Positions 23,778-59,861 of a stretch of DNA of 60,000 bases are shown piece by piece (the first letter of the stretch is position 1; every line of letters begins with the position of its first letter). Origin of the DNA: Callorhinchus milii. Taxonomy: Eukaryota. Below the pieces are notes generated by a model. It made no database searches. It worked only from the letters and a program-made list of their open reading frames with translations, and had not been told where the DNA came from. Location of the stretch: assembly GCF_018977255.1 (NCBI RefSeq), contig NW_024704742.1:87608001-87668000 (forward strand). The letters run 5' to 3'. The translations under genes and the position numbers were made by a program.

Positions 23778-24391
23778 CATCACTACAGTGAGGTCATCAC
23801 TACACCTGGACAATGAAGTCATCACTCCAGTGAGGTCATCACTACACCTGGGACAGTCAGGTCATCACTACACCTGGGACAGCGAGGTCATCACTACACC
23901 TGGGACAGTGAGGTCATCATTACACCTGGGACAGTCAGGTCATCACTACACCTGGGACAGTCAGGTCATCACTACACATGGGACAGTGAGATCATCACTA
24001 CAGCGAGGTCATCACTACACCTGGGACAGTGAGGTCATCACTACACCTGGGACAGTGAGGTCATCACTACAGTTAGGTCATCACTACACTTAGACAGTAA
24101 GGTCATCATTACAGTGAGGTCATCACTACACTTAGACAGTAAGGTCATCATTACAGTGAGGTCATCACTACACCTGGGACAGTGAGGTCATCATTACAGT
24201 GAGGTCATCACTACACCTGGGACAGTGAGGTCATCACTACACCTGGACAGTGAGGTCATCACTACATCTGGACAGTGAGGTCATCACTGCACCTGGGACA
24301 GTGAGGTCATCACCACACCTGGACAGTGACGTCATCACTACACCTGGACAGTGAGGTCATCACTACATCTGGACAGTGAGGTCATCACTAC
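23778..24391. repeat. minisatellite array 2 of the same family (GGGACAGTGAGGTCATCACTACACCT), roughly 25 units
   Basis: Same unit with CCTGGG in place of CCCGGG, plus 25-bp and 17-bp variants. Confidence 0.95.
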
Positions 24392-27707: not shown

Positions 27708-27994
27708 AGGGGCGCTTGCATCTTCAGGACATTCCATCTATAACCAGCAGAGGGCACCTGGAAGCCACCCCGGACCTGGTAGTGGACTCTTCCTACTACA
27801 GCAACTTTTATCAGCCATCTCTGTACCCAGCTTATTACAACAACCTTTACAACTATCCACAGTACCAGATGGCAGTGGCAGCAGACTCGCCTGCTTCTGA
27901 CGTGGGCTCCACACTGGGAGGGACAACTGTGAAAAACAGCCTTCGGGGGCTTTCAGCGTCCATGGTGACTGGTCAGACAACAAACCAGTGGCAG
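27708..27994 (+). CDS. dmrt1: dmrt1 internal coding exon (exon 3 equivalent, P/S/Y-rich region)
   Basis: Acceptor ttttgcAG at 27706-27707 and donor GTagg at 27995. Open frame (E)[60 protein letters not shown]...VKNSLRGL...GQTTNQWQ matches vertebrate DMRT1 exon 3 as I recall it (EGRMVIQDIPAVTSRGH...NQWQ). Starts in phase 1 and ends in phase 0. Confidence 0.95.
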
Positions 27995-30473: not shown

Positions 30474-31198
30474 TATATCATAGAGAATATCAGATTCTGT
30501 GTATACTATAGAGAATATTAGACTGTATACATAGAGAATATCACGCTCTGTGTATTTTAAAGAAAATATCAGACGTCAGCCTAGTTCAGTTGGTAGTACT
30601 CTTGCCTCTGGGTCAGAAGAATGTTGGTTCATGTTCCATGTCTCACGGTGGGACTTTGAGCTCATTGTTTAGGCAGACACAGTACAATGTTGGGGGAGCT
30701 TTGCACCGTTGGAAGTGCCGTACTTCGGATGAATCTTTGAACCAGATATCATCTGCTTGTTAAAGATTCCATGGCAATATTTAAAAAGGAAAGGCTTTCT
30801 CCTGGTGCTGTGGCCAACAATTACCCCTCTCAAATAAAAATGACAATTTATTTTAATGCTTTTTGTGGGATATTGCTACGTGCAAATTGGCTGCCATGTT
30901 CGCTTGCGAATGCACAGGCATTACACTTAACAGTAAATCCTGTGAAGCGCTTTGAGATCTTTCAACAATGTGATAAAAGCACTATAAAAGTGCTTTTGAT
31001 CACCCTCCTTTCCCCCTTGGACTCCACCCTCCGCAATCCCAACCCCCAGCTTGGGACGTCCTCCCAACATGAAAGGCGCTATACAAATTTTGTTGTTGTT
31101 GTATATTAACTGCAAGGATTAAAACATCAAACCCTGTGTATGTCATAGAGATCAGAAGACTCTGTATGTTAGAGAATAGTGGACTGTATATTGTGTTA

Positions 31199-31374
31199 TA
31201 AACTCCTGATAACTCACCACTCCAAAGGAAAAGGCCTAGTGATGAGTTATCAGGAGAGGCGAGTTAGGCATATGTAAAAATCCACAAATAAATATGGCCG
31301 GGATATAGACAGAATGATGACTTGAGGGATGGTGACAAATTAAGCCGGGGTCAAGTTATCAGGAATTTACTGTA
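31199..31374. mobile_element. Tigger-like MITE
   Basis: Inverted termini TAAACTCCTGATAACT ... AGTTATCAGGAATTTACTG|TA. A related partial copy at 34852-34929 runs into the assembly gap. Confidence 0.7.
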
Positions 31375-33989
31375 TTATAGAGAATAGTATGCTGCACAGA
31401 ATCCTGCAAAAGATTCTAACCTGCCTTATAAATGAGTTTGCTGGTCAGCACTTCCAATGTATATTGCATTATGTGAACCGTGAGTTCAAAGTTCCCAATG
31501 AGGTGAGAGTGCTACCAACAGAGCCTGGAAGAGTCAATGGCCTGAAATTACAATTACAGTGGTCAGAAAGCTATGGGACGTCTAACGTGGACGGAAATAT
31601 CGATTTTGAAATTCCGGATTGAATCCAAAAGTGAAGCATCTACTCTTGAATCTCGCATTTCTGGTAAGTTTAAATTACATGTTCTCTTTTCAGAGAAAAA
31701 AACCTTATATATAAATTGATTGTATAAACGTACACCCAAAAATGTTTTTGAAGTCTCTAATACACTTACAAATTCTACACTAAACTTTAGGGCATAGTTG
31801 CAACACATCTACTTTTCTAGTTGCTTCAGAAATTGTTTCTGTGGCTGTAGTCACCTGTTTCACAGTTAAAACTCCCTTTTTTGTGTTCTCTCAGATGAGT
31901 GTCGTTTTCTAGCTACACTCCATCCACCTCAGAGCTCAGAGACTACACATGGATATGTCAGGAGGCTCAGAAACTGCTGGCAATGACAAGGATTTGTCAC
32001 TGACAAACATCTGCCAAGGGAGGGTAGGCAAGAGGATCCACTGGCTGCAGTGCATCTTTATGGAATCTGCTGAAACATCTTGAAGCCTTGCAGACGAGAT
32101 ATGCCAGCCACAAGAAGCACGTACGTGCCTTCTCCACGATCACTTTGTCCCCCTCAACATCCCCGAGCCTTGTGGAGGGAGAGTGCTTGTTCAGTTGAAC
32201 CAAGCGCAGTGTCATTGTGTCACCAGCAGCTCATGTTATGCTGTACTGTTGCACTTCACCTTATCGATAGCTCATTCATGAGGGCAATGTCTGGATGTCT
32301 TTTCATTTGAAACTGATGGTAGTGGGAATTACAAACTCACTGCTAAGGGCAAAATACGCCACTCTGTTGGCCTTTAATAGTGTGTTTGTACTGTAAAATG
32401 TTATACAATTGGACAGGTTTGTTTCAGTCAGTCTGTTCACTGCTCTGATGAGTACCGAGTTACCCTCAATCATTCTGCTCTGGGATGTTTCCATTCAGAG
32501 GTTTGTGAAGGTAGCTGTTTTGAAGGCCTTCCCACAGGAGTTTATTCACATGAAGTACTTCAGAGCACTGTACAGTAGTGAATATATTTATAGTTATCAA
32601 AGAAGAACTTGCATTTTTATAGTGCCTACAATGTCGAACAACTCAAAGCCCTTCTCAGGAACCCCTTTGTCTATTGTAGTGATTGTTTCCATTACAGCTG
32701 CACAGCTTATTTCACAGAATATATTATTCTCCTGTAATAATTTCCAGTGCTCACAGTAAAAGACTGACTTGTGCCTCCAGTCTATTCTTTCAAACTCAGT
32801 TCATACATTGGCTGACCCTTTCACTACAGTGGCCTCTCTGCCTCTGAGGTGAAGCAATTCGAGCCATAAATTTAATGATGAGCAAAGAATAATCCTCAAG
32901 AGTATTCACACAACACACATACATGGACTGGCACAAGGTGGAGATAAAAGACAAAAACTGAGAATGAGAATGTTGGAAATATGAAACAAAAACGATAAAG
33001 CACGAGAAACATTAAAGCAATCCTTGCATTAGATATAGCGCCTTATCACGTCTTTGGGACGTCTCAATGCGCTTCACAGAATATACTGTAAACTATATTT
33101 TGTGGGTGACACACGGCAGCCAATTTCGCACAGCAGTGTCCCACAAGCAGTCATGGATTGAGTGAATTGGCCAATCAGTGGTGTGGGTTAAGTGATAAGA
33201 CATAGACCGATTGCTGATAGTGTATTTGGCTTTTTATTTGTTCGTTTAGCAGTTCGCTTGGGTTAGTTGCCAGGCAGGTAATATTGAACTCTTTTTCGTG
33301 CCACTGCAGCAAGTAGTGGTAAACTGTTCGGCTGACCTTGTAAATGATTTTAGTGGAAATAACAGAAGGTGGCGCTAATATCATGGTGTGTTGAACTCTT
33401 CGTGCTTTGGTTTCTCTGACATTTGCCATTGATTTTCCTTTCGGGAGTTGTGTAAAATCGTAGGACACAGGTGACCTGACAAATAACACTGGATGAAAAA
33501 CTGCTCAGCCCACCCTAATAGTGTAGTGGATAGAGCTGTGGCTTAAGGACCAATTTGCTGGTTCTTGTCTCAGACACAACTCAACAAGAGCTATACCAGG
33601 AACGTGAAAAGCACTATATCAATAATTATATATATCTATTTATAGATTAAAGCTCCCATGGCACTACTCAATAAGAGAAGGGAATTTCTCCCAATGTCCA
33701 GCCAACAATCCACCGCTTAAAATTGTTCATTCACTCCTAGTTGTTTCTGGGACATTGCTGTGTACAAATTAGTTATCACTAGACTTCACAGTAAATCCTG
33801 CGAAATGTTGGGACATTTATGAGACAAGACTCTATATTAAATGTAAGGTTTATTATTTCAGATATGAAAGCAGAAGCTAAAAGTTAATTTCATGAGTTAC
33901 TCCTTTCATATTCAGCTGAACACGATGTAGAATTAAATCAGCTGTATAAAATAGATCATTTCCAAGCAGATTAAAACATTCCAGTCTCA

Positions 33990-34211
<222 letters not shown>

Positions 34212-34929
34212 TTAAAGGATACATGTTTAAAGCAAAATCAGTTCTGCAATTGCACATCAGTCAAATAATAAAACACAAATTACATGACTTCAACTCAGAT
34301 TCTTTCCATTCTAGAGCCTGTTCTATATCATCCAAGCTTATTATTGCTTTGAGATTGCAGTAAAGTACAAAGAACCATTTATGATTGATTGATATGAGTG
34401 TCTCTTCTCCTCCAACCTACTGATAATAGTCTAGCATTGCAACTACTGCATTTTTATCTCACATTCCATAGCTACACAAAGTCCTTTTTTGCCAGCTGTA
34501 CCATTTACATAAAGCAGATAGCATATCTAGTTGCTTCAGTGATAAGTAACTAGATAGGTGGTCATGCAGCTCACACACTCTGGAATTGCTAACTTGCACT
34601 TATACAGTGTCTTTCAAACAGAACAAATGTTTCAAACTGCTAAATTATGATAGGGAGAACCTATCACCTACCATGTATACTTAACCTAACACAGTTAATC
34701 CAGAGACAATAAAGAGTGGACTCCAGATATGAACAATGTCATTTTGGATTCTTATCATGGTTCACATTTAAGAAAAGCCAGATTGTTTGGGGCAAGCATT
34801 GAGAATTCTAGAAATTGTGCATTGGAAACCAAGAGCAAGCTTTTGTTAAATGCAGTACATGCTTGATAACGTGTCATTCCAAGTGAAAAGGGTTCAATGA
34901 CAAGTTATCAGGAGGGTGAGTTGGGCATA

Positions 34930-34954
34930 NNNNNNNNNNNNNNNNNNNNNNNNN
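34930..34954. other. assembly gap (25 N)
   Basis: Run of N. The true size is unknown. Confidence 1.
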
Positions 34955-38675: not shown

Positions 38676-41517
38676 CATAAGAACATAAGAATTAGGAGCA
38701 GGAGTAGGCCATTCGGCCCTTCGTGCCTGCTCCGCCATTCAATAAGATCATGGCTGATCTTCTCACCTAACTCTGATTACCTGCCCTATCCCCATATTCC
38801 CTAATCCCTCTATCTTTCAAGAATCTATCAGTCTCAGCCTTGAAATAGTTCAAGGACTGAGCATCTACAGCCTTCTGGGGTAGTGAATTCCATACGTTCA
38901 CTACCCTCTGAGTGAAGAAATGTTTCCTCAACTCTGTTCTAAGAGGCTGACTCTTAATTTTAAGACTGTGACCCCTGGTTATAGATTCTCCTACCAGGGG
39001 AAACAGTCTCTCAGTGCCTACGTTATCCAGCCCTTTAAGAATCAATATGATCCCCCCTAATTCTTCTGTACTCTAGAGAATACAGCCCTAGTTTATTCAA
39101 CCTATCCTCATAGGTCAGTCCCCTCATCCCAGGAACTAACCGAGTGAATCTACGCTGCACCCCCTCTAGGGCAAGTATGTCCTTTTTTAAATAAGGAGAC
39201 CAAAACTGCACACAATACTCTAGGTGCGGTCTCACCAAAGCCCTATACAGTTGCAGCAAGACTTCCCTACTCTTATATTCTAAACCTTTCGAAATGAACG
39301 CTAACATGCCGTTCGCCTTCTTAGTTGCTTGCTGCACCTGCAAACTAACTTTTTGGGACTGGTGTACAAGGACACCCAAATCCCTTTGAATACTAACACT
39401 ATCTAACTTCTCCCCTTCCAGAAAATAATCTGTTCTTTTATTCTTGCTACCTAGGTGAATAATTTCACACTTGCTAACATTGAATTCCATCTGCCACCTA
39501 CTTGCCCACTCCCCTGCCTATCTATATCTTGTTGCAATCTTTTTGCATCATCCTGAGAGCTCACTCTGCTACCTAGTTTAGTATCATCCGCGAATTTAGA
39601 CACATTACATTCAATGTCCTCGTCCAGATCATTGATGTAAATGGTAAATAGCTGAGGCCCAAGCACTGATCCTTGTGGCACTCCACTAGTTACATCCTGC
39701 CAATTCGAGAATGATCCGTTTATCACTACTCTCTGCTTTCTACCCGATAGCCACTCTTCTATCCATGTTAATATTTTCCCATTAATCCCGTGGGCCTTGA
39801 TCTTGAGTAACAGCCTTTTGTGTGGCACCTTGTCAAATGCCTTCCTAAAATCCAAATATACCACATCTACTGGTTCCCCCTTATCCAACCTGCTGGATAC
39901 ATCCTCAAAAAATTCTAAAAGGTTAGTCAAGCATGACTTCCCTTTTGTAAAGCCATGTTGACTCTGCCTAATCTTTTTATGGTCTTCCAGGTATCCCATA
40001 ACTACGTCTTTTATTAAGGACTCAAGAATTTTCCCTACAACTGACGTCAAACTAACTGGTCTATAGTTTTCCCTATTTTCTCTCCCACCCTTCTTAAATA
40101 GTGGAGTTACGTTTGCAATCTTCCAATCAATGGGAACTTTTCCAGTATCCACAGACTTTTGGAAGATTATAGACATGCCATCCACTATCTCAGTAGCCAC
40201 CTCCTTTAAAACTCTCGGATGCAGGCCATCCGGTCCAGGGGATTTATCGGTTTTAAGACCCGACAATTTACCTAGAACCATCTCTTTACTAATGTTAATC
40301 TCCCTAAATTGCTCGCTAACATTGTCTTCTTGGTCCTCTATTTTTGGTATGTTTCCAGTGTCTTCGATTGTGAAGACTGTAGAAAAATACATGTTTAATG
40401 ACTCTGCCATGTCTTTGTCCCCTATTATAATTCCTCCGGTCTCTGCCTGTAATGGACCCACATTCACCCTCGCTAGCCTTTTCCTCTTTATATATTTGTA
40501 AAAACTCTTGGAGTCTGTTTTTATGTTCTTTGCTAGTTTGCCCTCGTAATCTATTTTCTCCCTCTTGATCAATTTTTTGGTCCTCCTCTGTTGTTCCCTA
40601 AAGTTCTCCCAATCCTCGGGTTTACTACTCATCTTCGCTGTTTTATAGGCTTTTTCTTTTGATTTGATACTTTCCCTAACTGCTCTAGTTAGCCATGGCT
40701 GCACCACCTTTCCCATGGCATTCTTATTCCTCAAAGGAATATGTGCTCGTTGGGAATTTTGCACTATCTCCTTGAATGTCTGCCATTGCTGGTCTACCGT
40801 CAAATCTTTAAGTTTAGTCTCCCAGTTTATTCTGGCTAAATCCTCTCTCATACCAGCAAAGTTGGCTCGATTTAAATTGAAGACTTTTGCTTCAGACTTA
40901 ACTACTTCCCTCTCTAACTTAACGCTAAATTCCATCATATTATGATCGCTTTGCCCTAGAGGAGCCTTAAGTTCCAGTTTGCTGATCAGCCCTGTTTCAT
41001 TACACAAAACAAGGTCTAATATGGCTTGTTCCCTGGTCGGCTCCTCAGCATATTGATCTAGAAAATTATCTCTAATACATTCTATAAACTCCTCTTCTAT
41101 GTTACCTTTCCCAATTTGGTTGTCCCAGTCTATGTGCAGGTTAAAATCACCCACAATTAGTGTCTTTCCTTTGCTACATGCTCCACTAATCTCTTGATTT
41201 ATACCTTGAGCGATACTTTGACCACTGTTTGGGGGTCTATAAACTACTCCCACTATAGTTTTCTGCCCCTTGAAGTTACGTATCTCTACCCATACTGACT
41301 CTACATCTTGCTTTTCAGATTTAAAATCTTTCCTCTCTACTGTTTTTATCCCATCCTTTATTAGCAGGGCCACTCCCCCTCCTCGTTTACCACATCGCCT
41401 ATCTTTCCTATATACCACGTAGCCGGGAATATTCAGTTCCCATCCCTGATCACCCTGTAACCATGTCTCGGTGATGGCTACTAGATCATACCGGTTTGTC
41501 TCTATTTGTGCAACTAT
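38676..41517 (-). mobile_element. CR1-clade LINE, nearly complete ORF2 (APE endonuclease plus reverse transcriptase) and 3' UTR, 5'-truncated
   Basis: ORFs 39451-41601, 39035-39490 and 38767-39045 join across two frameshifts. Motifs AITETW, VGDFN, SDHN, KSPGPDG, YRPVSLTS, LDFRKAFDKVPH, GVPQGSVLGP, KFADD, RPHLEYCVQFWSP. The 3' tail is (TTCTTATG)-like at about 38676-38692. Confidence 0.97.
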
Positions 41518-42073
41518 TTTGGATGTTTTGGCTAAATGGTTCTGATGCCATTGGGCAAGTTTTTTGCCTTTTCTTTTTTTCAAAACTAACATTTTGGACA
41601 ATAAGGATCCCTGATTGAGTTTTTATTAAAAAAACTAAATCTAATTCTAAAGTCTAATTATTTCTGAGTAGCTCAGACCAGCAGTCTAAATCTCCAGTTT
41701 ACCATTTAGAGGATTTGTAATTGAAATAAATAGTGTAAATGAACAATTGATTATGAAAACTGGCATGGTAACTGCAAAAGGGCAGAGATTAAAAATATCA
41801 GGAATTTATCGAGGAGGGTTGGCAAAACCACTCCATGCTGTTCAGCGCACAGCATTGTTTGTGCTGATATGTGGCCTGTTTAGCAGCCAGAGTGTGATTG
41901 GTGATGATATAGCAATGCCATTAACAAAACAACTGGCTTATTTTTAAAGTTAAAATTATATAATGTGAGTGATTTGTATAGCAAGTATATTTTATTAACA
42001 AATATCGCAATCGCATATTCATAGATGTTCTTTATATAGAAAACCTAATTCTTTAAAAATGTGGGATTTGCAG

Positions 42074-42175
42074 GAACGCATCCGCAACCACAAGTATCGG
42101 AGCCTGGGAGACCTGGAGAAAGATGTCAATCTGCTGTGTCATAATGCTCAGACATTCAACTTGGAAGGATCACAG
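42074..42175 (+). CDS. smarca2: smarca2 bromodomain exon (ERIRNHKY...EGSQ)
   Basis: ttgcAG / GTcgg boundaries, 102 nt, phase 0-0. Encodes [34 protein letters not shown]. The residues GDL, CHN and GSQ fit SMARCA2 rather than SMARCA4 (NDL, CQN, GSL). Confidence 0.95.
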
Positions 42176-43882
42176 GTCGGTTTTATGTCCTGTTAGACTA
42201 TGGTTTTGTGTGTCTCGGTGGTGTTTGTGCAGTGGTTAGCGCAGTGGTACACATTTGGGCATCATAAATATTTAAACTGCGCAAAAATTGGAATCTTCTG
42301 TGAAAAAAACATTTTGTAACTGGTGGAATAATAGCTGCCCTGACTCCCGAGTACTGAGCAGCCAAGTTCCCAACTGGTGCTATTCATTCAATAGTTTTGC
42401 TGTCTATAATCTACCAAAGGCCACAGCCCATATCATCTGTCTAACATTTTCTGCCTTAGCCCAGCCATGCCAGGTTTTTAGAAAATGATGTATTTGTGAA
42501 TACAATAAACGGTCCATACAAGTTATTGCAGAGATTGTTGGTACATGTTCCTACTATAAGTAGTATAAATCGATACTTGCTCACACTCTTATTATTGAGT
42601 GTTTAGAAAGCAGTAGTTGTTTGTGATCAATTCTGGGAGGCAGTCCTGAAAGAGCCCGAATGCTAAAACCTCGAGGTACCAACGCTCTGAGGAGATAGCT
42701 GCGAGCAAAGCTTAAGAGAGCAGTTTTGTGGGATATAGACATGGGATTTTTATGAAAAATGTTAGTTTAAATGAACAGGCAGCAGTAAATGCTCTCTTAG
42801 TAATTCTACATGTAAATATTGTGATAAGAAATTTATTCTAACTGAAATGTTTCACACGGTGAGAGTCCTCAATCACGTCTGATTTCACAGCTGAATAGTT
42901 ATGGAACTTTTTTAAAAATAGCCTAATCACATTGACCTTCACAAATTGACTTGGGAAAATATGCAGAGGCAGAAGGATGCCTATGTTCAGCTTTATCGAG
43001 TGACAACCCTGGAGTAGCAGACGATAGAGAAATATTTACTCCAAACAACTTCTCATGCTTTGGTTTCCTTTTCATGCTGTAGGGTAGTAGGAAGCTTGTT
43101 TAAAACAGTAATTTTACTGCTATCTGCCAAGTCAAAATGGAAAAGAACCATATCGGTGTTGGATATCATTATGACTATCAAAAAAAGTCGTACATTTTAC
43201 GATATATAACAGTGACCCAAACACAAACCCACCACCCTCCTCAAGTTCTCCGAAAACTCGAGCTTATTGAAAAGTTTTGTTTGAAATTTAAATGAGTGCA
43301 TTATTATTGCAGTAGAGTGGACCCGCAGGTTACTGGACTCTGGGTATCTGCAATTTATCCTGAGTCAGACTGAGCCAACAACAAAAAGCATTTTCTGCAT
43401 GTAGATCCTGGCCAGCCAAACTCTCCTAGTTCATGTCAAAGCTGCACTGAGCAGCCTCACTCACTGTCCTTGCTGGCCTTCACAGTAGTCAGGAATATCA
43501 ACTTGGACTCAGATTGTTTGAGTCGACGGGCTGGAAGATAGCTTATTTGCTATCTCCTGCTCGCTGCATTCAACCAAATAATTTGTTTGGAGGGGGTGAG
43601 AGCTACACTTCTTTGGAGAGAAATTTAATCAAGTTGTTTCAACAATTTCCACCAAATGTTCAGTCTGGTGTTAAATAATTCACAGTAAGTTCTTGTTAAT
43701 TTGTAGGTAACTGGACAGAGCTTTCTATAAATAGCATTCCACTCTAAGCGGTACAACAAGAGCATCGTGTCCTACCCACTGAATAATACCAACCCATCGA
43801 AATAGCAAAGACCAGAGTTTGGGATGTTCTAGTTTTCAGTTTCGAGAGCAGGTGGATATTTTAATCCTTTGTCTTGTTGCAG

Positions 43883-44015
43883 ATTTATGAAGATTCCATT
43901 GTTCTTCAGTCAGTGTTCAAAAGTGCCAGACAGAAGATCGCTAAAGAAGAGGAAAGTGAGGAGGAAAGCAATGATGATGACGATGATGATGAAGATGAGG
44001 AGTCAGGGTCTGAAA
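43883..44015 (+). CDS. smarca2: smarca2 exon (end of bromodomain plus acidic tract)
   Basis: ttgttgcAG / GTgag boundaries, 133 nt. Encodes [44 protein letters not shown]. Confidence 0.95.
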
Positions 44016-44380
44016 GTGAGTCTGAAAATTTGAAGATAGGTTCCAAGCTCAATCCTTTCTCTGACATTGGTGAGTTTGGTACATTTGAGCTTAGGGCTCT
44101 CAGACTAGTGATGTGGGTAGTGGGGTGGAAGGAGTAGCCAGTAGCTCTACCTGATCAGAATCCATAAAGCCCTTTTCTTCCCCTCCCCCATAGGAAAATG
44201 CATACCATTCACCCTTAAGTTTACAGCAGAGGACTACTGTTGCCTGTGGAATGATTTGCCCATTATGATTTGTTGTTCTGCTGTTTTACACACCAGATAA
44301 TGTGTTTCTGATTTGATGCAGTGTTCATTGAATAACAATGTGCCATGTTCATTTTTTTTCCCCCTCTGAATAACTTGCAG

Positions 44381-44526
44381 CGAAGTCCGTCAGAGTTAAA
44401 ATAAAGCTTGGTCGAAAGGACAGTGACAGAAGTCGTGAGAAAGGGAAAAGCAAGAAGCGTCTAAGTCGTGCTAAAATTAAGCCAGTCGTGAGCGATGATG
44501 ATAGCGATGACGACCAAGAAGATAAT
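44381..44526 (+). CDS. smarca2: smarca2 penultimate exon (basic tail)
   Basis: cttgcAG / GTaag boundaries, 146 nt. Encodes (T)[48 protein letters not shown], in frame with both flanking exons. Confidence 0.93.
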
Positions 44527-45816
44527 GTAAGTCTCACTTATGATAGCTTTAATACTCCAAATTGTATTCCAAATGTGACCTGAAGGTTCGAATCAGCAGC
44601 TACTGAAGTGAATCATTGGTTACATTTGTCATCTTCATTGCAGAACTTTCTGTGAAAATTCTTTTTAAGTCCTCTGTACCTTTAGCAGAAGTTATTTTTA
44701 CAAATGGCTGTCGTGAGCATTGTCACCAAAAATATAGTCCTTGTTTTGATTGAAGTCTTTCATTTTGTGAGCTTTTGTATGAGTAACAGACTGAGAATTC
44801 ACCCCTCCGCATCTTCTTTTCATTCTCTTTCGTATGGTGTATACACACAAACAATTGCACATATGCCTTCACTATTGTTACTCATTGACCACTGCAACGT
44901 GCAGAGTAGCTCTACATTTCCTTTGCCTGCTGGGAGAAAACATGTTTCTACTCTGAACCGCTGCACAATAATATAATTTGCCCACAAAATATCCTGTCAA
45001 TTCCCTTTATTGTATATTTTGTGAAGCACTTTGAGACGTTTCGAATATGTGATAAAGCACTGTATCAAATGCAAGGATTGTTATTGTAATTGAGATGGGG
45101 AACTTGTGTTTGGGGTTTGGGTACTGAACCTTTAGGCCCACACTCACTTGTTCAGATGAGCTGTCTGGCATTGCCACCTGAGAGGCTTTTATCGTGTTTT
45201 ATTTTCACATTATAAATGGAGTTCTATATTGTTTCTTTTTTCTATTTTCCCTTTTCCACCACCACCCAAAAAAGCTTTATTAATTATGATATTGAAGAGC
45301 AATGATACTCATCCTAATCACTTGTGTTGAATTAACAGCATTTACCTTCTCGTAGCAGTGGTTCACATTATGCGCCTGTCGTGTTCAAAAGAAACTGTGG
45401 TTATTTAAAGTTGTTTAATGTTATGACCATTTTCAATGTGTGTAAACTGTAAAGGAAACTAAACTGCCTGGCGAGCGTTTCTGATGTTTCAAGAGTAATA
45501 ATGAGATTTTTGTTTAACATGTATAGAAATGACATTGGATGTGGGATAAACGTAAAAATCAAGTTGCTTAATGCTGTGTGATTCTATGTGGATTTTTAAT
45601 TTGGTATCACGTTCACAGCAAAATTTGTTTAGTGCCTTTCACATCAGGAGAACGTCCCAAAGTGCTGGCAGTCAAGGATGTACATTCCAGCTGGGGGTTG
45701 GGATCAGGTGGTGGGGAAGGTGGGGGTGACTGAAGGCACGGTTGATTATCAGTCATGTTAAATCCCTTATCAAGATTAATGGTTTGTTTAATCTCATGTT
45801 TCCTTTTTCATCCCAG

Positions 45817-45852
45817 GACCAGTCAGACGGCAGTGGCAGTGACGATGAGTGA
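45817..45852 (+). CDS. smarca2: smarca2 terminal coding exon
   Basis: Polypyrimidine tract plus cccAG, then DQSDGSGSDDE and TGA. Resembles the SMARCA2 C-terminus (EQSEGSGTDDE). Confidence 0.9.
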   Translation, partial: DQSDGSGSDDE

Positions 45853-51049: not shown

Positions 51050-51475
51050 CATTCGGGGAGAGGAGTCAAGACAGATCAGAGGCTGAGCCTGGCGAGCAGC
51101 ATAGAAGGAGCGGCTGAGGTAAGCTGGGAACAGGCGGAGCTACGAAAAAAAAGAAAAAGTGACGTTGGTGTGACGTCACTTTCAACAGCAGAACCAGGGA
51201 GACATCGACAAACAAGGAACTGTCAGAAACTACAACACTGACGACAAATAAAAACAAAAATAAAAAATATATATATATATATTGAAAACACTTTGAGAAG
51301 ATGATGTGGCAAATGAAATGCGAGGACTGTGACATGGGAGTTAATGGAGGGCGCCCTGAGGGCAACTTCATCTGCAACAAGTGCAACTCAGGAAGCTCCA
51401 GCTGAGGGTAGCTGAGCTGGAAGCCGAGGTGCAGACACTGCGCTCCATCAGGGACAGTGAGAGGTTCCTGGATAG
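51050..51475 (+). mobile_element. second copy of the same CR1 5' UTR/ORF1 start, opposite orientation
   Basis: Aligns by eye with the reverse complement of 52548-53294 once the SINE at 52726-53041 is removed. Confidence 0.85.
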
Positions 51476-53294
51476 AGGTTGCTGACCACTTGAGCCTGCA
51501 GCTCACCAATCTTGTTTGCTAAAGTCCATGCATTTAGGCATATGCACTCCAAGACCAACTTGACCTGTTTTGTGCTCCACCCCCCCGTTTTATTTCTCCA
51601 TTTTCTAGCTCTTCGTTTTTTGCATTCCCTTCCCCCTCAAAACTAATTTAAACCCTCCCCAACAGCATTAATTAGCCTGTCTGCAAGGACATTCACCCCA
51701 GCCCTGTTTAGGTGTAACCTATCCATATAGTACAGATCCCACCTGCCCCAGAACTGGTCCCAATGATCCATAAACCTGAAGCCCCCTTTTCTGGACCATT
51801 TCTCCAGCCAAGCATTCATATGCTTGATCCTGCCATTATGGTACTTATTTGCCCGAGGCACAGAGAGTAATCCACAGATCACCACCTTGGATGTTCTATT
51901 CTTTAGTTTGTTCCCCAGCTTTTGATATTCTCCCTGTAGCGTCTCAGCCCTTTTTTTTAACCAATATCATGGATCCCCACCTGGTCCACCATTTCTGGAT
52001 GTTCTCCTTCCCCCTGAAGAATTTTATCCACCCGTTCCGTGATGTCTAAGACTGTTGCACCAGGCAGGCAACATACCATCCTTGACTCCCGTCTTTGGTT
52101 GCAGAAACGCCTGTCTATACCTCTCACTGTTGTATCCCCTATGACAACAGCATTGCTCCTGTTACCTGTGTCCCTCTGTTCAACCAATCGGTTTATACTT
52201 TCCCCTTGGAGGTACCAACACTCTCAATGTTCAGTACAGAGTATCAGTTTGAGAGTGCTACACTATTGGGGGCATTCTGCCCTGCCCGTCACCTCTTCCT
52301 ACCATGCCGGACAGTCACCCAGTCATTTTCCATCTGAACCCTCGGTGGCTGTGGGGTGACCACCTCCTGAAGTGTCTGGTCCATCAAATCCTCACATCCA
52401 CTGTACAAGTTTGAAGCCCAAAGCTCCATCACCACTCTCTTAGGGGTCCCATTATCTGCAGGATTGATAAAGCTATCCTGTCCCTGACCATTAACCAGAT
52501 GCAAGCATCTCCCGAGCCTCAGGGGAGTGATGGTTTCCTCCATTATACTGTCCAGGAACCTCTCACTGTCCCAGATGGAGCGCAGTGTCTGCACCTTGGC
52601 TTCCACCTCAGCTACCCTCAGCTGGAGCTTCCTGAATTGCACTTGCTGCAGACGGAGTTGCCCGGGCTCAGGGCGTCCTCCATTAATTCCCACATGTCAC
52701 AGTCCTCACATTTCATTTGTCACATAGTAATAATAATAATCCTTGCATTTGATATAGCATTTTTCACATCTTCTAGACGTCCCAAATTCTTCACAAAATA
52801 TACTGTAAAGTGAATTGACTGTATATTTGTGAGCGAACGCGGCAGCCAATTGCGCACAGCAATGTCCTACACACAGTCATGGATTAAAAATGACCAATTT
52901 AGTATTGTTTTTGTTTTTTTAGAGGGATTATTATTAGGCGTGTGAAGTAAGGAAACTTGCCCAAGGTTTCTCCCTGCCTGGAATTGAACTCGGGTCTCTC
53001 ACTTGCAAAGCGAGTGCTCTAACCACTGAGCTACAGGACTCCACATCATCTCACACAGTGTTTTCAATATATATTTTTTTTACTTTTTGTTTTTATTTGT
53101 CGTTAGTGTTGTAGTTTCTGACAGTTCCTTGTTTGTCGATGTCTCCCTGGTTCTGCTGTTGAAAATGATGTCACACCAACGTCACTTTTTCTTTTCTTCG
53201 TCTATCCGACAGTAGCTTACCTCAGCCACTCCTTTTATGCTGCTTGCTCTGCCCAGGCTCCGCCTCCACTCTGTCCTGACTCCTTTCCCCGAAT
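51472..53294 (-). mobile_element. CR1-clade LINE 5' part: 5' UTR, degenerate ORF1 (zinc finger/coiled coil plus SGNH esterase) and first codons of ORF2
   Basis: Minus-strand motifs LQLRVAEVEAKVQTLRSI, DWVTVR, AVVIGDTTVRGIDRRFC, VCCLPGA and DRLHLNRAGVNVLA, followed by the ORF2 start LECICLNAWTLANKIGELQAQV. Confidence 0.85.
52726..53041 (-). mobile_element. full-length tRNA-derived SINE nested in CR1 ORF1
   Basis: Reverse complement of the same SINE family. Target-site duplication CACAT at 52721-52725 and 53042-53046. Confidence 0.93.
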
Positions 53295-56200
53295 GACAAT
53301 AGATTAGAAAGGGAAAAACTGTTTCCACTGGTGGACTCGAGGTCACAGATTTAAAACAGTATCTAAAAGAAGCAGAGGGGAGGTGAGAAGAATTTTTTTC
53401 ACGCAGCGAGTTGTTCGAATCTGGAACGCATTGCCTGAAAGTGGAGGCCGATTCGATAACAACTTTTAAAAACGCAGTGGACGGGTATTTGAGGAGGACG
53501 GGTTTGCAGGGTTATGGGGAAAGAGCTGGGGAGTGGGATTGACATTACATTGCTCTTTTCAAAGAGCCGGCACAGACTCAATGGGCCGAATGGCCTGTTT
53601 TTGTGCTGTACGATTCTATGACTCTATGAAAGCTTGGCAATCCATTGTCCTTAAAATGAAGCTTCAATCATAAATGGAGTTTAAAAAGTCACCAGAAAAC
53701 GTTGAGATGCATATCACGTCAACAAATAACTGAAGAACAACGGGTTAACATTTTGGAAAGAAGCCTTTACCGGAAACGGACTTGTTGGGCCGGAGCAAAC
53801 ATTTGAGAATTGAAAAGTAAAGTAGGGCAAGACGAAGAAACAAACATATTAAGGAAACAGTTGAAAATTCACGTCTACAATAATAACTAATCCCAAAGGG
53901 AGGCAGTTAATGGAACATCAACAGATATTTTAAAATGCTGGAAAGAAAATGTTAAAGAGGCCGTACATGCTACAAAGGTAAACTCAAGGGATGGCTTTTA
54001 AAGCATAAGTACTGCCCTGCCCAATAATGTTCCAGATAAATTGGTAATTCACTTTATGACTGCTTGTTGGACTTTATGCATAAATTGACTACGTTTGTTA
54101 ACAATTACGCACTCGTTATACTTGACAGCGATTACACGTGAAGTGCTTTGACATTTTGAAAATACAAGCACCTTTTTGAAATTATTATTAATTCATTGCT
54201 AGGATATTTACCTAGCGCTGCAAGAATCTGATAGTACAGTGTAATGTGGTGGTGGGGGGGTGGGGGATTGCATTGTGAGACGTTAAAAAACCAAGATCAC
54301 GAATGAATGTGGACTTGAAGGATCCTATGACACTATCGGAAAAGAGAATTACATTTTTTCCAGTGTCCTGGCCAACAATTTACCCAGATAAAATTGCTCA
54401 CTCACTTAATGGCTGTTTGTGGGCTGCTGCTGTACCTAATTTGGCTGCCGTGTTCACCTGCAAACAGTACTAGACTTTGCAGTAAATCCTGTGAAGCGTT
54501 TTGAGATGGTTCAACGACATGATAAGGTGGCTAGCAAACACAAGGAATTTTATTATTATAATAATTGCACAGAGCTAAGGAGCAAATATTGCTGAATGTA
54601 GAAATGTTTCTCCTTAATCACAGGGTTGTTTCAGTTCTAGAATGCCCACAAGCAGTGCACCATGGCAAATTGTTTCCCTTGCAGTGCTGGGCAATTCAAA
54701 TCACTTCCAATAGTAGCACAATTTGGAGCCGAACACGGCATTTCTATTCCCTGTTCTAAAATTGCTTTTTACTAAAATTGCTCTCAACGTAGTTTAACAG
54801 GCAGTCTCCAGCGCAATACACTTCAAGTTTGTAACCCCCAATTTTGATTTATATACAGTATATATAGCAAAACCTGCTGAAAGGAATGACCTCCTTGGGG
54901 ACAATTCTAAGGGAAAGTATTATTGATCTCAACAAGGATTGCAATCATCTTAAGAAGCATCTTAAAATAATTGCTAACATCTTAAAGGTTGGGTTAAGAA
55001 ACCAACCAGAATTGTTTCTGCCAGTTAAAGAACTAAGTATGAGCTTATTAAAACTGCTGCAACAACGTCAGATATCTAAGGCAGAACAATGAGAATTTAT
55101 ATTTATACAGTGACTTTTTAAATCAAGAGGATGTCACAAAGTGCTTCACACAACTGACTGGGAGCCCGAATGGGGGAAGATAGGCAGAGCGGGGAGAGAA
55201 AAGGAGGCTGAAAGCAGAGTAGAATTAATGTCACTGCTTCCTTTAAGTGAACACTGGAATTGACTATTCAAAAGGCATTCTTTAGGCTCCTATACATTTA
55301 AATTATCATTCCTTATTAAATGGCACCTCTTCACAAGTCCCTATGAATGCAGACTATGTTTAATGCCGGCATCAATAAATCACATGTCCGGAACAAAAAA
55401 TCAATCTAGGTAATTTTAAAACGAACAATCCTACAACTTATGAAAAAGCTAAACCAATAACAGACAGAGTACTTGCAATGCATAACATAGAAGGAGAAGC
55501 TGCACTATATTCATTCAGATTCAGTTTCATGCATTATGCAGGAAGGGAAGCCTTTCTAGGCAGTTCACACACAATGGCAACAGTAATCTTGAGAAAGCAT
55601 ATCGACGCTATAAAGATTTGCAATTTTGCCTGTTTCAGTAATTTTGCAGTACAGTATTCTAAACTGCAGCTTCATGGTTTGATGCAAATGGTACAGTCAG
55701 CAAATACAACCAATCATTATATTGGCTCTAATTAGAAAACAAATTGTATTCTTCCCATGTAATTGGTTTATCAACATAGTGTTGTTAGGTTTCTCCACTT
55801 GATGTGATAGTTGACAAGTCAGACATCAATAATATAAATATAATCAATAATAATCCTTACATTTAATGTAGCGCCTCATCACCTTGTTGAGGTACCACAA
55901 AGTGTTTCACAAGATTTTCTGTAAAGTGGAGTGACTTTTTTTTGCAGGTGAACCCAGCAGCCAACCTACACACAGCAACAACATTCCACAAATAGCTATG
56001 AAGCAAAAGACCCATTTTGTCTGGGAGATTGTTGGTCAGAATACTACAAATATGTAGGAAATTAACTATTCCCACTGTTCAGAAGAATGTAAACTGTATC
56101 TAACTCAACAGTCAATCAATCCCCTCTGCCTAACCCTCCACCACAGACATTGATCACAACATAGACATTGCCCTAACACTGCATTGGGGACAGATTTAAT

Positions 56201-57072
56201 ATTTGTGTTCAGTTGCTCAGCAGCAGCTTGCTTCCAATTGCCCTAAAGTTTTTAACAAGGTATTTGGGTTCAGGACAAACCAGTCCACCAATTGTCCCAG
56301 ACATGAGCCTGTTTCCTATCAGAGGAATAAAAGAACACATCAGTCAGTTGGGAGATGTTTGTCTGCTCCCCTTCGGTACTGTTTTTAAAAAAAAGTTAAT
56401 ATACTTTACAGTAATTGATTTGCAGTTTAGACTTCTGCTTTTGGCAGAATCAGTGATATGTTTCCTTTGCAATTGGCCACACTGCTGCTATTGGCATTAT
56501 GGAAGCCATCTACCCAACTAAATCCCCATCAGCCAGGAAGGTACTGGCTTTGATTACTGTCAGTCAATGGTACCTGAGGAAGCTGCAGGGATGGTGCAAT
56601 TGGCTTTTAAATCCATTGTTGCTGCTATAGCCTGCACTTGTAGTTTTATACTAGTCTTTTGTGCCTTGCAAAATCTCTTGCAAAAGCCCTTGAAGACCAG
56701 ATATATGGGGATATCTTTCAGTGCATACCTCTTTGAAACACGATGCTGATCTGCAGGCAATACATCACTGATTTGCAGCCACAGCAGCTCTTGTGGGCAA
56801 AGTAAAATAATCGTTGCATTTGATAACAGTTCAGTATCACGGTGACTCTTCAACATAATGCATGCTTTGTGCTGCTCCAGTTATGTTTGGTAGTCTCTGA
56901 TCCTCTTTATTGTGTGATTATCAGATTTTTCACCCAAAGAGGCGCACTGTTTTTTAGATGGCCTTTAAGTTACCAATTTTCTGATGGGCTTAAAAACTAT
57001 CTAAGCAAATTCTAATTTGGGCTGAGAGCAGATCTTTCTTCTTAGTATTCTTAGTATTGTTTTGAAATACAG

Positions 57073-57167
57073 AAGTGCTGTAAAGCAACTCTATGGACCA
57101 CCAGCTTCAGAATGGAAATGTGATGGAGAGGAAGACTGTAGTGATGGAAGTGATGAACATTTCTTTG
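57073..57167 (+). pseudogene. vldlr: decayed LDL-receptor class A exon of the VLDLR-like gene (most like repeat 1)
   Basis: 57113-57167 reads WKCDGEEDCSDGSDEHFF, then a phase-1 GTagg donor. The last Cys is replaced by Phe and the N-terminal three Cys cannot be recovered in frame. The 5' boundary is uncertain. Confidence 0.7.
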
Positions 57168-58499
57168 GTAGGTGACTTGAGGGTTAAAGGTGTTCAGACT
57201 GACTGGCTGCTTGTATGTTTGAACTCTACATCCATTAACCAGCTACCAGCTACAACTACTTTTAAATTAGATTGGATTTTCTGCTAATTCAATACAATTT
57301 ATCAATCAATCTGGGCTAAAAAGTTGCAGCGAAACGTATTTGTATAACCAACTCTTTTAATATGATCTGCAGCACAACAGAAGATGCTTGTAAATAAAGC
57401 TTATTCTTTGTGGAGGCGGGTGGGCATCTCGTGGAGCTGGTTTGAAATTGTGGAATTAAGACAACTCTTGTTGATGGAACTGGAAAGGGTAAGGTTCTTC
57501 CCACTTGCTCTTGTGAACCAACCCTGCAAGCCAAAGTACTAGCAGCTGCAAGTTTGCCAGCCAGCACTCTCAATGATGAGTTTGCTGTTTTAGATGACTA
57601 AGCTCCAGCAGTACTTCAACCACACTCTGGGGTCCCCAAGTCTTGGCTCTCACCAAACTGTATCTAATGCACTGGAGAATTGATTAAGTGACGTGTACCT
57701 CCAGAGAGTGCATTACTGGTTCCAGATGGAAATTTCCATTTGTAGGTGGCATGCATACGACATTCTGTCTGATTTGGTTACTAGTAATGCATTTCTAATT
57801 GTGCCAGACACCCAGCTGACCAAAAAAAGGATACTTACAAAACTAATAGAGAAGGCTTTCATAACACAAAGCGAATTAACAGGAAGTGTGGAAACGTGGA
57901 TGTGAGAAGAGAGTTTTGCTCCCAGGGACTAGGATTGGTTGGGATGAAGTGATGTTCCTGTGTGTTTGCACCATAAACACATGATTGAACACGATGAGTG
58001 TTGGGGTGACATTTATGAAACAGTAGTAAAAATGTAGGCTTTAGAATAGGGGTGGAGGGATGACAGAGTTGGTATTGTTTAACTGGTCATTGTAAGAAGG
58101 GCAAAGAATTGTTTTGGAAGCACAACGTACCAAGATGTTGAATCTGTTAGAACAGAAATAGGCCATGCAGACAATTAGATTGGCAGTAGAGATGCTATGA
58201 ATGTCTTTACTTCAGTTTGCGCATTAAATTAGACCTTTCCAGAAAACTTAAACTTTATCTTTATTAATGCGGAAAATAAGTAAATTTTGCAGCTTCAATT
58301 TAACTTTTAAAAATTTTAAAAATCGTAATGTGGAACCTCTTTAAAACTAGAATTAGTGTGTGGGGGAAGAAGGGAGAAGGAGAGCGGCGAATTAGAGGAA
58401 AGAAAAGGACTGAGTCTTGGGTGTTTCCAATTGAGACAAGTTGTCAAACGAGCGGAGCCAACAGATCTCAACGTTAAATGGTGATTTTGTCTTTTCCAG

Positions 58500-59203
58500 C
58501 CCAGTCCACTTGCAGTTCTCTAGAACTCACATGCTCCAGTGGCCGATGTGTTTCTCAGACTTTTGTGTGCAATGGGGAAGATGACTGTGGTGATGGAAGT
58601 GATGAACAAGGGTGTCGTACATCTATCTGGAGTCCTGTAGCTCAGTGGTTAGAGCACTCGCTTTGCAAGCGAGAGACCTGAGTTCAATTCCAGGCAGGTC
58701 AGGGCGAAACCTTGGGCAAGTTTCCTTACTCCACACAGAGCCTAATAATAATCCCTCCAAAATAAAAAACAATAATAAATTGGTCATTTTTCAATCTACG
58801 ACTGTTTGTGGGACATTGCTGTGCGCAATTGGCTGCCGCGTTCGCCCACAAATATACAGTCAATTCACTTTACAGTCTATTCTGTGAAGCGCTTTGGGAC
58901 GTCCTCCCGACGTGAAAAGCACTACATCAAATGCAAGGATTATTATTATTATTATTATCTGTGGGCCACATGAGTTTCAGTGCAAGAACTCTGAGTGTAT
59001 CCCACTGACCTGGGTGTGTGACAACAATGCTGACTGCACTGATCGATCTGATGAATCTCGAGACAGCTGTGGCCATACCCTTCCTCCTCCTGTGACCTGT
59101 TCTCTGAGTGAAATGCCATGTGATTCAGGAGAATGTATCCACCACCTATGGTACTGCGATGGTGGGATTGACTGCAAAGATGGAAGTGATGAAGCTAATT
59201 GTT
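58500..59203 (+). pseudogene. vldlr: VLDLR-like three-LDLa-repeat exon (exon 5 equivalent) disrupted by a SINE
   Basis: ttccAG acceptor and GTaag donor. 58500-58628 plus 58961-59203 rejoin into a 372-nt open exon: [63 protein letters not shown]...[28 protein letters not shown]. The 332-bp insert brings an in-frame TGA at 58679-58681. Gene identity rests on repeat sequence, exon structure and position downstream of smarca2. Confidence 0.88.
58629..58955 (+). mobile_element. full-length tRNA-derived SINE with (ATT)n tail, inserted in the vldlr exon
   Basis: tRNA-Ala(TGC)-like head GGAGTCCTGTAGCTCAGTGGTTAGAGC with A/B boxes, tail ATCAAATGCAAGG(ATT)n, and target-site duplication TATCT(G) at 58624-58629 and 58956-58961. 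Confidence 0.95.
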
Positions 59204-59738
59204 GTAAGTCGAAAATTCTATAAGCTTTAGGTATGTACATGTGGGAAGGGGCACATGAGGACAGATTTGTGGGTCTCCTAATTATCACAAGCCAGTTCTT
59301 TCTGCTCTGAATTCCATGCTGTTTGATGGGGTTGTTGTGCCAACAATCTGGTGAAAATCTTTCTGAGGAACTATTTGAAGGCTCTAGAACCTCATTTCAT
59401 ATCTTAGATCTTCATGGGAGTGAGTGGCTTTTACTCAGTAAAATACTGTAANTTTTTTCTGACTTTAGGACAATCGCTATAGCATAAGATGTTTTCTGCA
59501 AGCGAGGTAACTTCTGGGGATTGCATTATACATTGGGGATTTTGAGCCTTTCTTTGTTGAAACATGGAGGGAATGGTTGTCGTTCAAAAAGAATGGGGCA
59601 AATTGTGAACATTGCTAACCTATCGGAGCTCTTGTGGCTAGTTTTATAATAGTCAAGTCTTTACATTCAAATCGTTTGCATGCTAAATATTAATGTGAGA
59701 AGATTTCCTGCAACATTTCACTTCCATTTTTGTATCTG

Positions 59739-59861
59739 CTGCTCAAACGTGTAGACCAGGTCAGTTCAGATGTGGTAACAGCAGCTGCATCCCTGAAAGC
59801 TGGGAATGTAACAAAATGATGAACTGCATTGATGGCAGCGATGAGGTCAACTGCACGAAAG
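59739..59861 (+). pseudogene. vldlr: VLDLR-like single-LDLa exon (exon 6 equivalent) with mutated acceptor
   Basis: 123-nt frame AQTCRPGQFRCGNSSCIPESWECNKMMNCIDGSDEVNCTK, then a GTagg donor. The expected acceptor position (59737-59738) reads TG, not AG. Confidence 0.85.

What the first reader, a model, noticed from the sequence alone, without database searches (positions are those of the whole stretch)
58500..59203. SINE insertion knocks out a VLDLR-like coding exon; the pre-insertion frame is exactly restorable
Seen: a 332-bp insert (SINE plus one TATCT target-site copy) splits the codons ...TCT ATC T|GT GGG CCA.... Removing it restores a 372-nt exon with three six-cysteine LDLa repeats. The insert adds an in-frame stop and a frameshift. 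Established: VLDLR (LR8) is the vitellogenin receptor in egg-laying vertebrates and a reelin receptor. Inference: a null allele is best explained by a redundant duplicate. Decay of an oocyte-important gene would suit a male-limited segment, though this is speculative.
Basis: partly seen in the sequence, partly recalled or inferred. Interest (0 to 1): 0.7.

Follow-up and report, generated by a model that had tools for sequence, protein, structure and literature searches.

The report
SINE in dead yolk-receptor duplicate
A common jumping element sits inside an exon of an already broken spare copy of an egg-yolk receptor gene in the elephant shark; a working copy lies close by, so this is ordinary duplicate decay, useful mainly because it exposes two faulty public gene models.

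Summary
Observation confirmed. Exon 58500-59203 holds a 332-nt tRNA-Ala-head SINE with a 5-6-nt target duplication, a stop at 58679 and a frameshift. Without it the exon is 372 nt and encodes three six-cysteine LDLa repeats.

The species is Callorhinchus milii or nearly identical. The exon belongs to a partial tandem copy of chondrichthyan VLDLRc3, 96% identical to an intact copy that RefSeq model XP_042202724 reaches downstream. RNA-like contigs from two runs stop at this exon's splice sites and carry only intact-copy letters.

The copy is broken independently of the SINE: its upstream LDLa exon lost its 5' half, its downstream one lacks an AG acceptor, and 4 of 7 amino-acid differences hit near-invariant positions. 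No signal-peptide exon was found. The SINE is more likely a passenger than the killer.

'Male-limited segment' is not supported. The window shows the usual DMRT1-SMARCA2-VLDLR order, with the middle missing at a 25-N assembly gap. Whether other animals carry the insertion was not resolved.

By-product: RefSeq's VLDLRc3 model is chimeric, and its truncated 'DMRT1-like' model is probably a gap artefact.

The parts
58500..58628 (+). 5' half of the LDLa-4/5/6 exon of the dead VLDLRc3 copy (copy A); acceptor AG at 58498-58499
   Evidence: RNA-like contigs of the intact copy stop at 58499
58629..58960 (+). 332-nt insert: tRNA-Ala-head SINE (CmiSINE/SINE2-1_CM type by description) plus one target-site copy; (ATT)n tail 58939-58958
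   Evidence: family description in PMC5499810
58624..58628 (+). left target-site copy TATCT (right copy 58956-58960; both extend one base)
58679..58681 (+). in-frame TGA inside the SINE head
58961..59203 (+). 3' half of the LDLa-4/5/6 exon; donor GTAAGT at 59204
   Evidence: RNA-like contigs of the intact copy stop at 59203
57073..57167 (+). remnant of the first LDLa exon of copy A: only the 3' half is recognisable, last Cys is Phe, 95 nt between the nearest AG and the donor (not a multiple of 3)
59739..59861 (+). LDLa-7 exon of copy A: preceded by TG instead of AG; 3 of 40 residues differ from the intact copy, all at conserved positions
42074..45852 (+). last four coding exons of SMARCA2 (42074-42175, 43883-44015, about 44381-44526, 45817-45852), the usual upstream neighbour of VLDLR
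   Evidence: Pfam bromodomain; best PDB matches SMARCA2/SNF2L2, 70 bits vs 61 for BRG1; exon borders
34930..34954 (.). 25-N assembly gap; DMRT1 exons 4-5, DMRT3, DMRT2 and most of SMARCA2 are missing exactly here
27708..27994 (+). DMRT1 exon 3, identical to C. milii DMRT1 (mini-exon at 29020-29040; RefSeq's short terminal exon at 31895)

Best explanation
The window is the ordinary DMRT1-(DMRT3-DMRT2)-SMARCA2-VLDLR block of the elephant shark. A recent local tandem duplication copied the 5' LDLa exons of the VLDLRc3 gene, with their introns, to a position about 11 kb after SMARCA2 (copy A, 57-60 kb). The intact, transcribed copy B lies downstream, outside the window. Copy A apparently lacks a signal-peptide exon and has decayed at close to the neutral rate. 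An abundant LINE2-mobilised SINE then inserted into its LDLa-4/5/6 exon, leaving a short target duplication. Shown: insertion anatomy, intact sister copy, independent lesions, gene order. Inferred: the mechanism (target-primed reverse transcription, established for SINEs), that copy A was dead from birth, and that the SINE is a neutral passenger rather than the first hit.
For: RefSeq XP_042202724 (P0002, 139-Mb contig): residues 1-172 match the window almost letter for letter and residues 174-824 are a second, intact module, so both copies lie in one colinear model. Copy A is 95.7% identical to that module and 68.7% to VLDLRc1; they group 100/100 inside a chondrichthyan VLDLR clade supported 97/98. 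Ohishi et al. list this accession as C. milii VLDLRc3. Lesions other than the SINE: half-lost first LDLa exon, missing AG at the LDLa-7 exon, and 7 of 163 residues changed, 4 of them where the 34 other modules are near-invariant (F 34/34, D 33/34, G 33/34, D 30/34). 7 changes over about 389 nonsynonymous sites is 1.8%. In the 305 exon bases covered by intact-type RNA-like contigs there are 3 differences, all nonsynonymous. RNA-like runs X5 and X6 show only intact-type letters at 3 of 3 listed diagnostic sites. DNA-like run X1 has copy-A pieces with 0 differences (records 6, 7, 8), and X1 and X4 also hold pieces 2-6% different, so two versions exist beyond this assembly. The scan for a signal-peptide exon between 45000 and 57075 returned none, while 10 of 10 family N-termini pass its hydrophobicity cut. 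SMARCA2's last exons lie just upstream on the same strand.
Against: The order of events cannot be read from one genome, so the SINE could have been the first hit. The filled and empty junctions were not seen in any run, because SINE contigs from the whole genome swamped the joint table. Fixation of the insertion is therefore untested. Contigs collapse close variants, so rare copy-A transcripts would be invisible. 3 nonsynonymous of 3 is also unremarkable under neutrality (P=0.48) and is a small sample. The insert differs from the local majority at 18 of 305 columns (5.9%), more than the roughly 2% per lineage since the duplication; subfamily differences or gene conversion between A and B must absorb this. 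The signal-exon scan was controlled only for hydrophobicity, not for the donor rule. Copy B's DNA was never seen directly; its place is inferred from the RefSeq model.
Confidence: 0.72

Rival explanations
1. The SINE was the inactivating first hit on a duplicate that was briefly functional, and the other lesions accumulated afterwards.
For: The insert's distance from the local SINE majority (5.9%) is not smaller than copy A's protein decay (1.8%), so it may date from near the duplication. Both splice sites of the SINE exon are intact, so inclusion would truncate the protein.
Against: No signal-peptide exon was found upstream, which suggests a partial copy from the start. At least two other lesions would each break the copy. 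The 5.9% is an upper bound from five older local copies.
Confidence: 0.12
2. Copy A's exons lie inside intron 1 of the live VLDLRc3 gene, whose first exon is in the window but was missed. They are pseudo-exons that are skipped; skipping the phase 1-1 exon keeps the frame, so the SINE costs nothing.
For: The exon is symmetric. The homologous exon 5 of ApoER2 (LDLa 4-6) is naturally skipped (PMC7410921, passages). RNA-like contigs carry only copy-B letters. RefSeq strings A and B into one model.
Against: No candidate first exon between SMARCA2 and the first remnant. No 2-kb bin there has CpG o/e above 0.51.
Confidence: 0.09
3. A and B are two haplotypes of one locus falsely assembled in tandem, so the SINE marks a true null allele.
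For: The same neighbourhood has an assembly fault: DMRT1 sequence is represented twice, on the 139-Mb contig and on a 470,678-bp contig.
Against: 7 of 163 residues, several independent lesions and intron pieces up to 6% apart are too much for ordinary alleles. Pieces shared by both versions have per-contig depth 17-26, against about 9-12 (14 if one outlier is kept) for unrelated SINE-flank contigs, as expected for two loci (rough, because the tool warns that depth is no copy number).
Confidence: 0.04
4. The segment is a male-limited (Y-like) haplotype with a truncated DMRT1 and a decayed ovary gene.
For: DMRT1 exons 4-5 are absent from the window and RefSeq annotates a DM-domain-only 'DMRT1-like' protein here. 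VLDLRc2 and c3 are ovary-only in catshark (PMC10015161). No X-like scaffold was found in C. milii, so its sex locus is open (PMC12318234, passage).
Against: The truncation coincides with a 25-N gap. Right of the gap come SMARCA2's intact last exons in canonical order. An unplaced 470,678-bp contig carries DMRT1 exons 3-5 and overlaps the window from at least 6018 to 29040. The DMRT1-DMRT3-DMRT2 cluster is reported as conserved in C. milii (PMC6737965, passage). DMRT1 exon 3 is 100% identical in both models. All 4 best-holding runs have 0.61-0.77 of the region's words (their sexes were not examined). Copy-A-only pieces are at about 0.65-0.8 of single-locus depth, not clearly 0.5 (weak).
Confidence: 0.03

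Closest known systems
Chondrichthyan VLDLRc3 / VLDLRc2 (Ohishi et al. 2023, PMC10015161; C. milii XP_042202724)
   Same: 96% identical to the intact module of that accession; same exon layout; tandem position after SMARCA2; multi-module receptor family, ovary-expressed in catshark.
   Different: This is a partial, decayed extra copy of the 5' LDLa exons. No such copy is mentioned in the passages, sections 8, 9 and 11 or supplement part 2 that I read, and the accession used there begins with 172 residues from it.
CmiSINE (SINE2-1_CM / SINE2B-1_CM; Luchetti et al. 2017, PMC5499810)
   Same: tRNA-Ala-derived head, about 330 nt, microsatellite tail, very high copy number (302,861 insertions reported; many thousands of contigs laid).
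   Different: Assigned by description only; I had no consensus to align. This copy is closer to the local majority (5.9%) than the family averages (12.6% and 17.2%).
Canonical VLDLR / LR8 (VLDLRc1), the vitellogenin and reelin receptor
   Same: Same family and same three-repeat exon (human VLDLR chain 8ufb residues 166-246 match).
   Different: Only 69% identical to C. milii VLDLRc1, which is intact and separate (P0026, P0258).
Truncated DMRT1 duplicates used in sex determination (Xenopus dm-W, medaka dmy; recalled, and seen in search listings only)
   Same: RefSeq's model XP_042202683 here keeps the DM domain and lacks the C-terminal exons.
   Different: The break falls at an assembly gap, the missing exons are on an overlapping unplaced contig, and exon 3 shows no divergence.

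Membership tests
tRNA-derived SINE (CmiSINE type) | tRNA-derived head | tested here: met
   tRNA-Ala by ARAGORN; Rfam RF00005 49.6 bits, E 1.7e-9
tRNA-derived SINE (CmiSINE type) | interspersed high-copy repeat with a simple-repeat 3' tail | tested here: met
   34 blastn hits in 60 kb including itself; (ATT)n tail; depth pile-up in 4 of 4 runs
tRNA-derived SINE (CmiSINE type) | target-site duplication | tested here: met
   5-6-nt direct repeat; its length is ambiguous because of overlap with the tail and head
tRNA-derived SINE (CmiSINE type) | CORE domain and L2-2_CM-like tail, alignment to the SINE2-1_CM consensus | not testable with these tools
Chondrichthyan VLDLRc2/c3 | groups with chondrichthyan VLDLR rather than LRP8 | tested here: met
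   tree of 38 rows, 164 columns: 100/100 with the C. milii module, clade 97/98, LRP8 outside
Chondrichthyan VLDLRc2/c3 | excluded from LDLR and Lrp13 | not tested
   no LDLR or Lrp13 row in my tree; rests on 96% identity to an accession that PMC10015161 placed in VLDLR with LDLR and LRP8 rows, and on SMARCA2 synteny
Chondrichthyan VLDLRc2/c3 | orthology to c3 rather than c2 | tested here: inconclusive
   multi-module rows form an open polytomy; the name is taken from the paper's table
Chondrichthyan VLDLRc2/c3 | complete receptor: signal peptide, LDLa cluster, EGF and propeller, transmembrane segment | tested here: not met
   copy A has broken LDLa exons and no detectable signal exon, and no EGF or propeller exons lie upstream in the window; sequence beyond 60000 not seen
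Unprocessed duplicate pseudogene | keeps introns; has an intact parent; carries disabling lesions | tested here: met
   three exons with introns; parent in P0002; SINE, lost acceptor, half exon
Unprocessed duplicate pseudogene | no functional transcript | tested here: inconclusive
   only copy-B letters in 2 RNA-like runs, but contigs drop rare variants
Sex-limited (Y/W-like) segment | present in one sex only, hemizygous | tested here: inconclusive
   sexes of the runs not examined; rough depth ratio 0.65-0.8
Sex-limited (Y/W-like) segment | sequence-supported rearrangement or diverged DMRT1 duplicate | tested here: not met
   the join is a 25-N gap, gene order is canonical, exon 3 is identical in both models

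The most novel reading that the evidence does not exclude
The 25-N gap hides a real deletion-type junction. The window would then be a non-recombining, sex-linked haplotype of the DMRT1 block in a chimaera whose sex locus is unknown, carrying a DM-domain-only DMRT1 and a decaying copy of an ovary receptor, with the SINE as a sex-diagnostic marker.
Probability: 0.03. Interest if true: 0.85.

Novelty: new member of a known kind. Interest (0 to 1): 0.2.

Why it matters
On the best reading it matters modestly. It is a clean, datable example of birth and death in the tandem VLDLR expansion of cartilaginous fishes, and the insertion is a usable presence/absence marker. Its practical value is annotation. 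The N-terminal 172 residues of RefSeq XP_042202724, used in print as C. milii VLDLRc3, come from a dead copy, with a predicted intron (58637-58980) drawn around the SINE. RefSeq's truncated 'DMRT1-like' XP_042202683 is probably made by an assembly gap and could mislead searches for the chimaera sex-determining gene. It would matter much more only if the segment proved sex-limited.

Tried and rejected
No whole genome was held, so copy B's DNA and the unplaced contig could not be read.

Laying four runs on 55600-59440 (4 of the 24 runs listed) did not show the filled or empty junction. SINE contigs filled the joint and loose-end tables (682 joints and about 200,000 pieces not shown), and the tail was skipped as a repeat. 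No RNA holder was on record; X5 and X6 are guessed to be RNA.

A six-frame search for the lost 5' half of the first LDLa exon found only the other LDLa exons. Motif and tblastn searches found no DM-domain exon, no DMRT1 exon 4/5 and no EGF or propeller exon in the window. Pfam on 119 of 119 plus-strand frames of 48 aa or more between 29050 and 57060 (LINE ORF region left out) gave one bromodomain and two RT fragments; the 98 minus-strand frames were not scanned. The two sides of the gap share only short repeat matches, so no overlap join was seen.

In-frame rescue by RefSeq's predicted intron 58637-58980 was considered and doubted: the donor is GTAGCT, the product loses the start of LDLa-5, and no RNA support was seen. 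My early guess of a Deu-type SINE was dropped after reading PMC5499810.

PMC8302630 (passages) gave nothing on gap handling and is not used. PMC12952989 (passages) concerns another chimaera: its putative X lacks Dmrt1. Literature searches: 'VLDLRc3' gave 1 paper; VLDLR + vitellogenin + shark gave 1; two searches listed nothing on this duplicate. Earlier-findings look-ups were empty.

Full report
1. The observation. An AG at 58498-58499 and GTAAGT at 59204 bound a 704-nt exon. TATCT occurs at 58624-58628 and 58956-58960 and extends to a 6-nt repeat, so the cut can slide by one base. Leaving out 332 nt gives 372 nt, phase 1 to phase 1, open, with six cysteines in each of three LDLa repeats (Pfam hits on both halves). 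With the insert the frame stops at TGA 58679-58681. The insert has a tRNA-Ala head, an (ATT)n tail and 33 relatives in the window, the four near-full-length ones 88, 86, 80 and 73% identical. Its description fits the CmiSINEs of Callorhinchus milii: tRNA-Ala head, LINE2 tail, 302,861 copies (PMC5499810; I read parts 1-2 of 6). I had no consensus to align. It differs from the majority of five other window copies at 18 of 305 columns, the least of the six copies compared.

2. What gene it is. The 3' half of the exon finds C. milii proteins at 98% identity. RefSeq XP_042202724 (P0002, 824 aa, 139,202,109-bp contig) begins with this window: residues 1-20 at 56743-56802, then the remnant at 57073-57167, then both halves of the SINE exon with a predicted intron 58637-58980 drawn around the SINE. 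From residue 174 it continues into a second, intact run of LDLa, EGF and propeller domains that is not in the window. So the window holds copy A, and a near-identical copy B follows downstream; that position is inferred from the colinear model. Over LDLa 4-7, copy A is 95.7% identical to B and 68.7% to canonical VLDLRc1. In a tree of 38 rows (37 modules from 32 chosen proteins plus copy A; no LDLR or Lrp13 row), copy A groups 100/100 with B and two Ensembl fragments. That group sits inside a chondrichthyan VLDLR clade at 97/98, with LRP8 outside. Ohishi et al. (PMC10015161; abstract, passages, sections 8, 9 and 11, supplement search and part 2 read) describe three tandem chondrichthyan VLDLRs. 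c2 and c3 have repeated ectodomains and are ovary-only in catshark, and XP_042202724 is listed as C. milii VLDLRc3. My tree does not resolve c2 against c3.

3. Copy A is dead for several reasons. (a) Its first LDLa exon keeps only the 3' half, ends in Phe for the last Cys, and spans 95 nt between the nearest AG and the donor; the missing half is nowhere in the window. (b) The LDLa-7 exon (59739-59861) is preceded by TG, not AG, and RefSeq skips it. (c) Seven of 163 residues differ from B. Four hit columns where the 34 other modules are near-invariant (F 34/34, D 33/34, G 33/34, D 30/34), one gives a residue seen in none of the 34, and two are ambiguous in direction. That is 1.8% of nonsynonymous sites. 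(d) No ATG-hydrophobic-donor exon was found between 45000 and 57075, although 10 of 10 family N-termini pass the hydrophobicity cut; the donor rule was not controlled. I infer a partial duplicate that decayed about neutrally from birth. The SINE is one of several lesions, and its rank in time is unknown.

4. Other individuals and RNA. Four runs hold 0.61-0.77 of the region's words; 16 more hold small shares, mostly explicable by the SINE. I laid two of the four and two RNA-like runs. In X5 and X6 the exon contigs stop at 58499 and 59203, the predicted splice sites, and continue into unlaid sequence. They carry the copy-B letter at all 3 listed diagnostic sites (58526, 59105, 59144), all nonsynonymous, with no synonymous difference in 305 bases (P=0.48 under neutrality). 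So copy B appears transcribed and spliced; copy-A RNA was not seen but could be lost in contig building. DNA-like X1 has three pieces identical to the window (58329-58515, 58992-59214, 59185-59440). X4 has one such piece (56395-56586) and a mosaic exon contig. Both also hold pieces 2-6% different, and X4 has two overlapping versions near 58100 that both differ from the window, so there may be more than two copies or gene conversion. As a rough ruler, unrelated SINE-flank contigs in the joint table average depth 12.0 in X1 (10 of 11 rows; one single-contig row of 128.7 dropped, about 14.4 with it) and 8.9 in X4 (7 of 7 rows). Copy-A-only pieces are at 9.4 and 7.2, and shared exon pieces at 19-26. 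This fits two diploid loci better than two alleles or a hemizygous copy, but the tool warns that depth is no copy number. Against a firm conclusion: the SINE junctions themselves were not visible, so whether the insertion is fixed is open.

5. The sex-linkage idea. The window contains DMRT1 exon 3 (27708-27994; Pfam; 100% to C. milii DMRT1) and its mini-exon, but not exons 4-5 or any DM domain. RefSeq has two models. XP_042202683, on the 139-Mb contig, keeps the DM domain and ends in a five-residue exon at window 31895. XP_042201382, on a 470,678-bp contig, has exons 3-5, and its first 17 residues match window 6018-6068. A 25-N gap lies at 34930-34954. To its right are the last four coding exons of SMARCA2, intact, ending at 45852, and then copy A. 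DMRT1-DMRT3-DMRT2-SMARCA2-VLDLR is the usual vertebrate order (recalled), and the DMRT cluster is reported conserved in C. milii (PMC6737965, passages). The simplest reading is that the unplaced contig belongs in the gap. I could not check that it carries DMRT3, DMRT2 and SMARCA2. C. milii shows no X-like scaffold (PMC12318234, passages), so a small sex locus is not excluded in principle, but nothing here points to one.

6. Mechanism and rivals. Best reading (0.72): partial tandem duplication, neutral decay, and a passenger SINE inserted by LINE2 machinery (an established mechanism, inferred here from the tail and target duplication). Rivals: the SINE as first hit (0.12); pseudo-exons inside the live gene's first intron, skipped in frame as ApoER2 exon 5 is (PMC7410921, passages) (0.09); false duplication of alleles (0.04); a male-limited segment (0.03). 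One loose end is that the SINE's distance from the local majority (5.9%) exceeds copy A's decay (1.8%). Older comparison copies and subfamily differences probably explain this, but it keeps the first-hit rival alive.

7. Novelty and verdict. A SINE in a pseudo-exon of a recent duplicate is a known kind of event. I found no description of this copy: 'VLDLRc3' occurs in one held paper, and searches listed nothing on it; subscription papers, figures and unread supplement parts may hold more. The lasting value is two annotation warnings, the chimeric VLDLRc3 model and the gap-truncated DMRT1 model. Interest 0.2; new member of a known kind.

Noticed in passing
window 27708-34954: DMRT1 exon 3 and its mini-exon end at a 25-N gap. 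RefSeq builds a DM-domain-only 'DMRT1-like' protein here and a second, DM-less DMRT1 on an overlapping 470,678-bp contig. Probably one gene split by assembly, but it mimics a dm-W-like truncated duplicate.
   Followed up: partly
window 42074-45852: Last four coding exons of SMARCA2, intact, with AATAAA at 46126 and 46401. Together with the gap they show that the DMRT3-DMRT2-SMARCA2 interval is missing from this scaffold.
   Followed up: yes
proteins P0002, P0021, P0257 (outside the window): Ensembl-derived models join the propeller of the VLDLRc3 module to a second module and a transmembrane tail, so the genes listed as C. milii VLDLRc3 and c2 may be one two-module receptor. The shared propeller differs at 3 residues between the two models, hinting at alleles or further copies.
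   Followed up: partly
protein P0002 residues 174-213: The intact module goes from the first LDLa repeat straight to repeats 4-6, without repeats 2-3; no remnant of those exons lies between 57167 and 58500.
   Followed up: partly
window 39454-41622 (-): 723-codon LINE ORF2 (endonuclease and reverse transcriptase), continuing in shifted frames to about 38770, inside a SMARCA2 intron; relatively young.
   Followed up: no
window 21912-24391: Two blocks of a 26-bp minisatellite with 17-bp variants inside DMRT1 intron 2, split by a SINE copy.
   Followed up: no
window 51146-53198: Long inverted repeats (95% and 93%) around an ORF with a weak GDSL/SGNH esterase-like match at 51646-51966, probably nested LINE ORF1 fragments facing each other.
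   Followed up: no
window 5603-5674, 19459-19532, 52969-53040: The three other 'tRNA-Ala genes' called by ARAGORN are heads of the same SINE family.
   Followed up: yes
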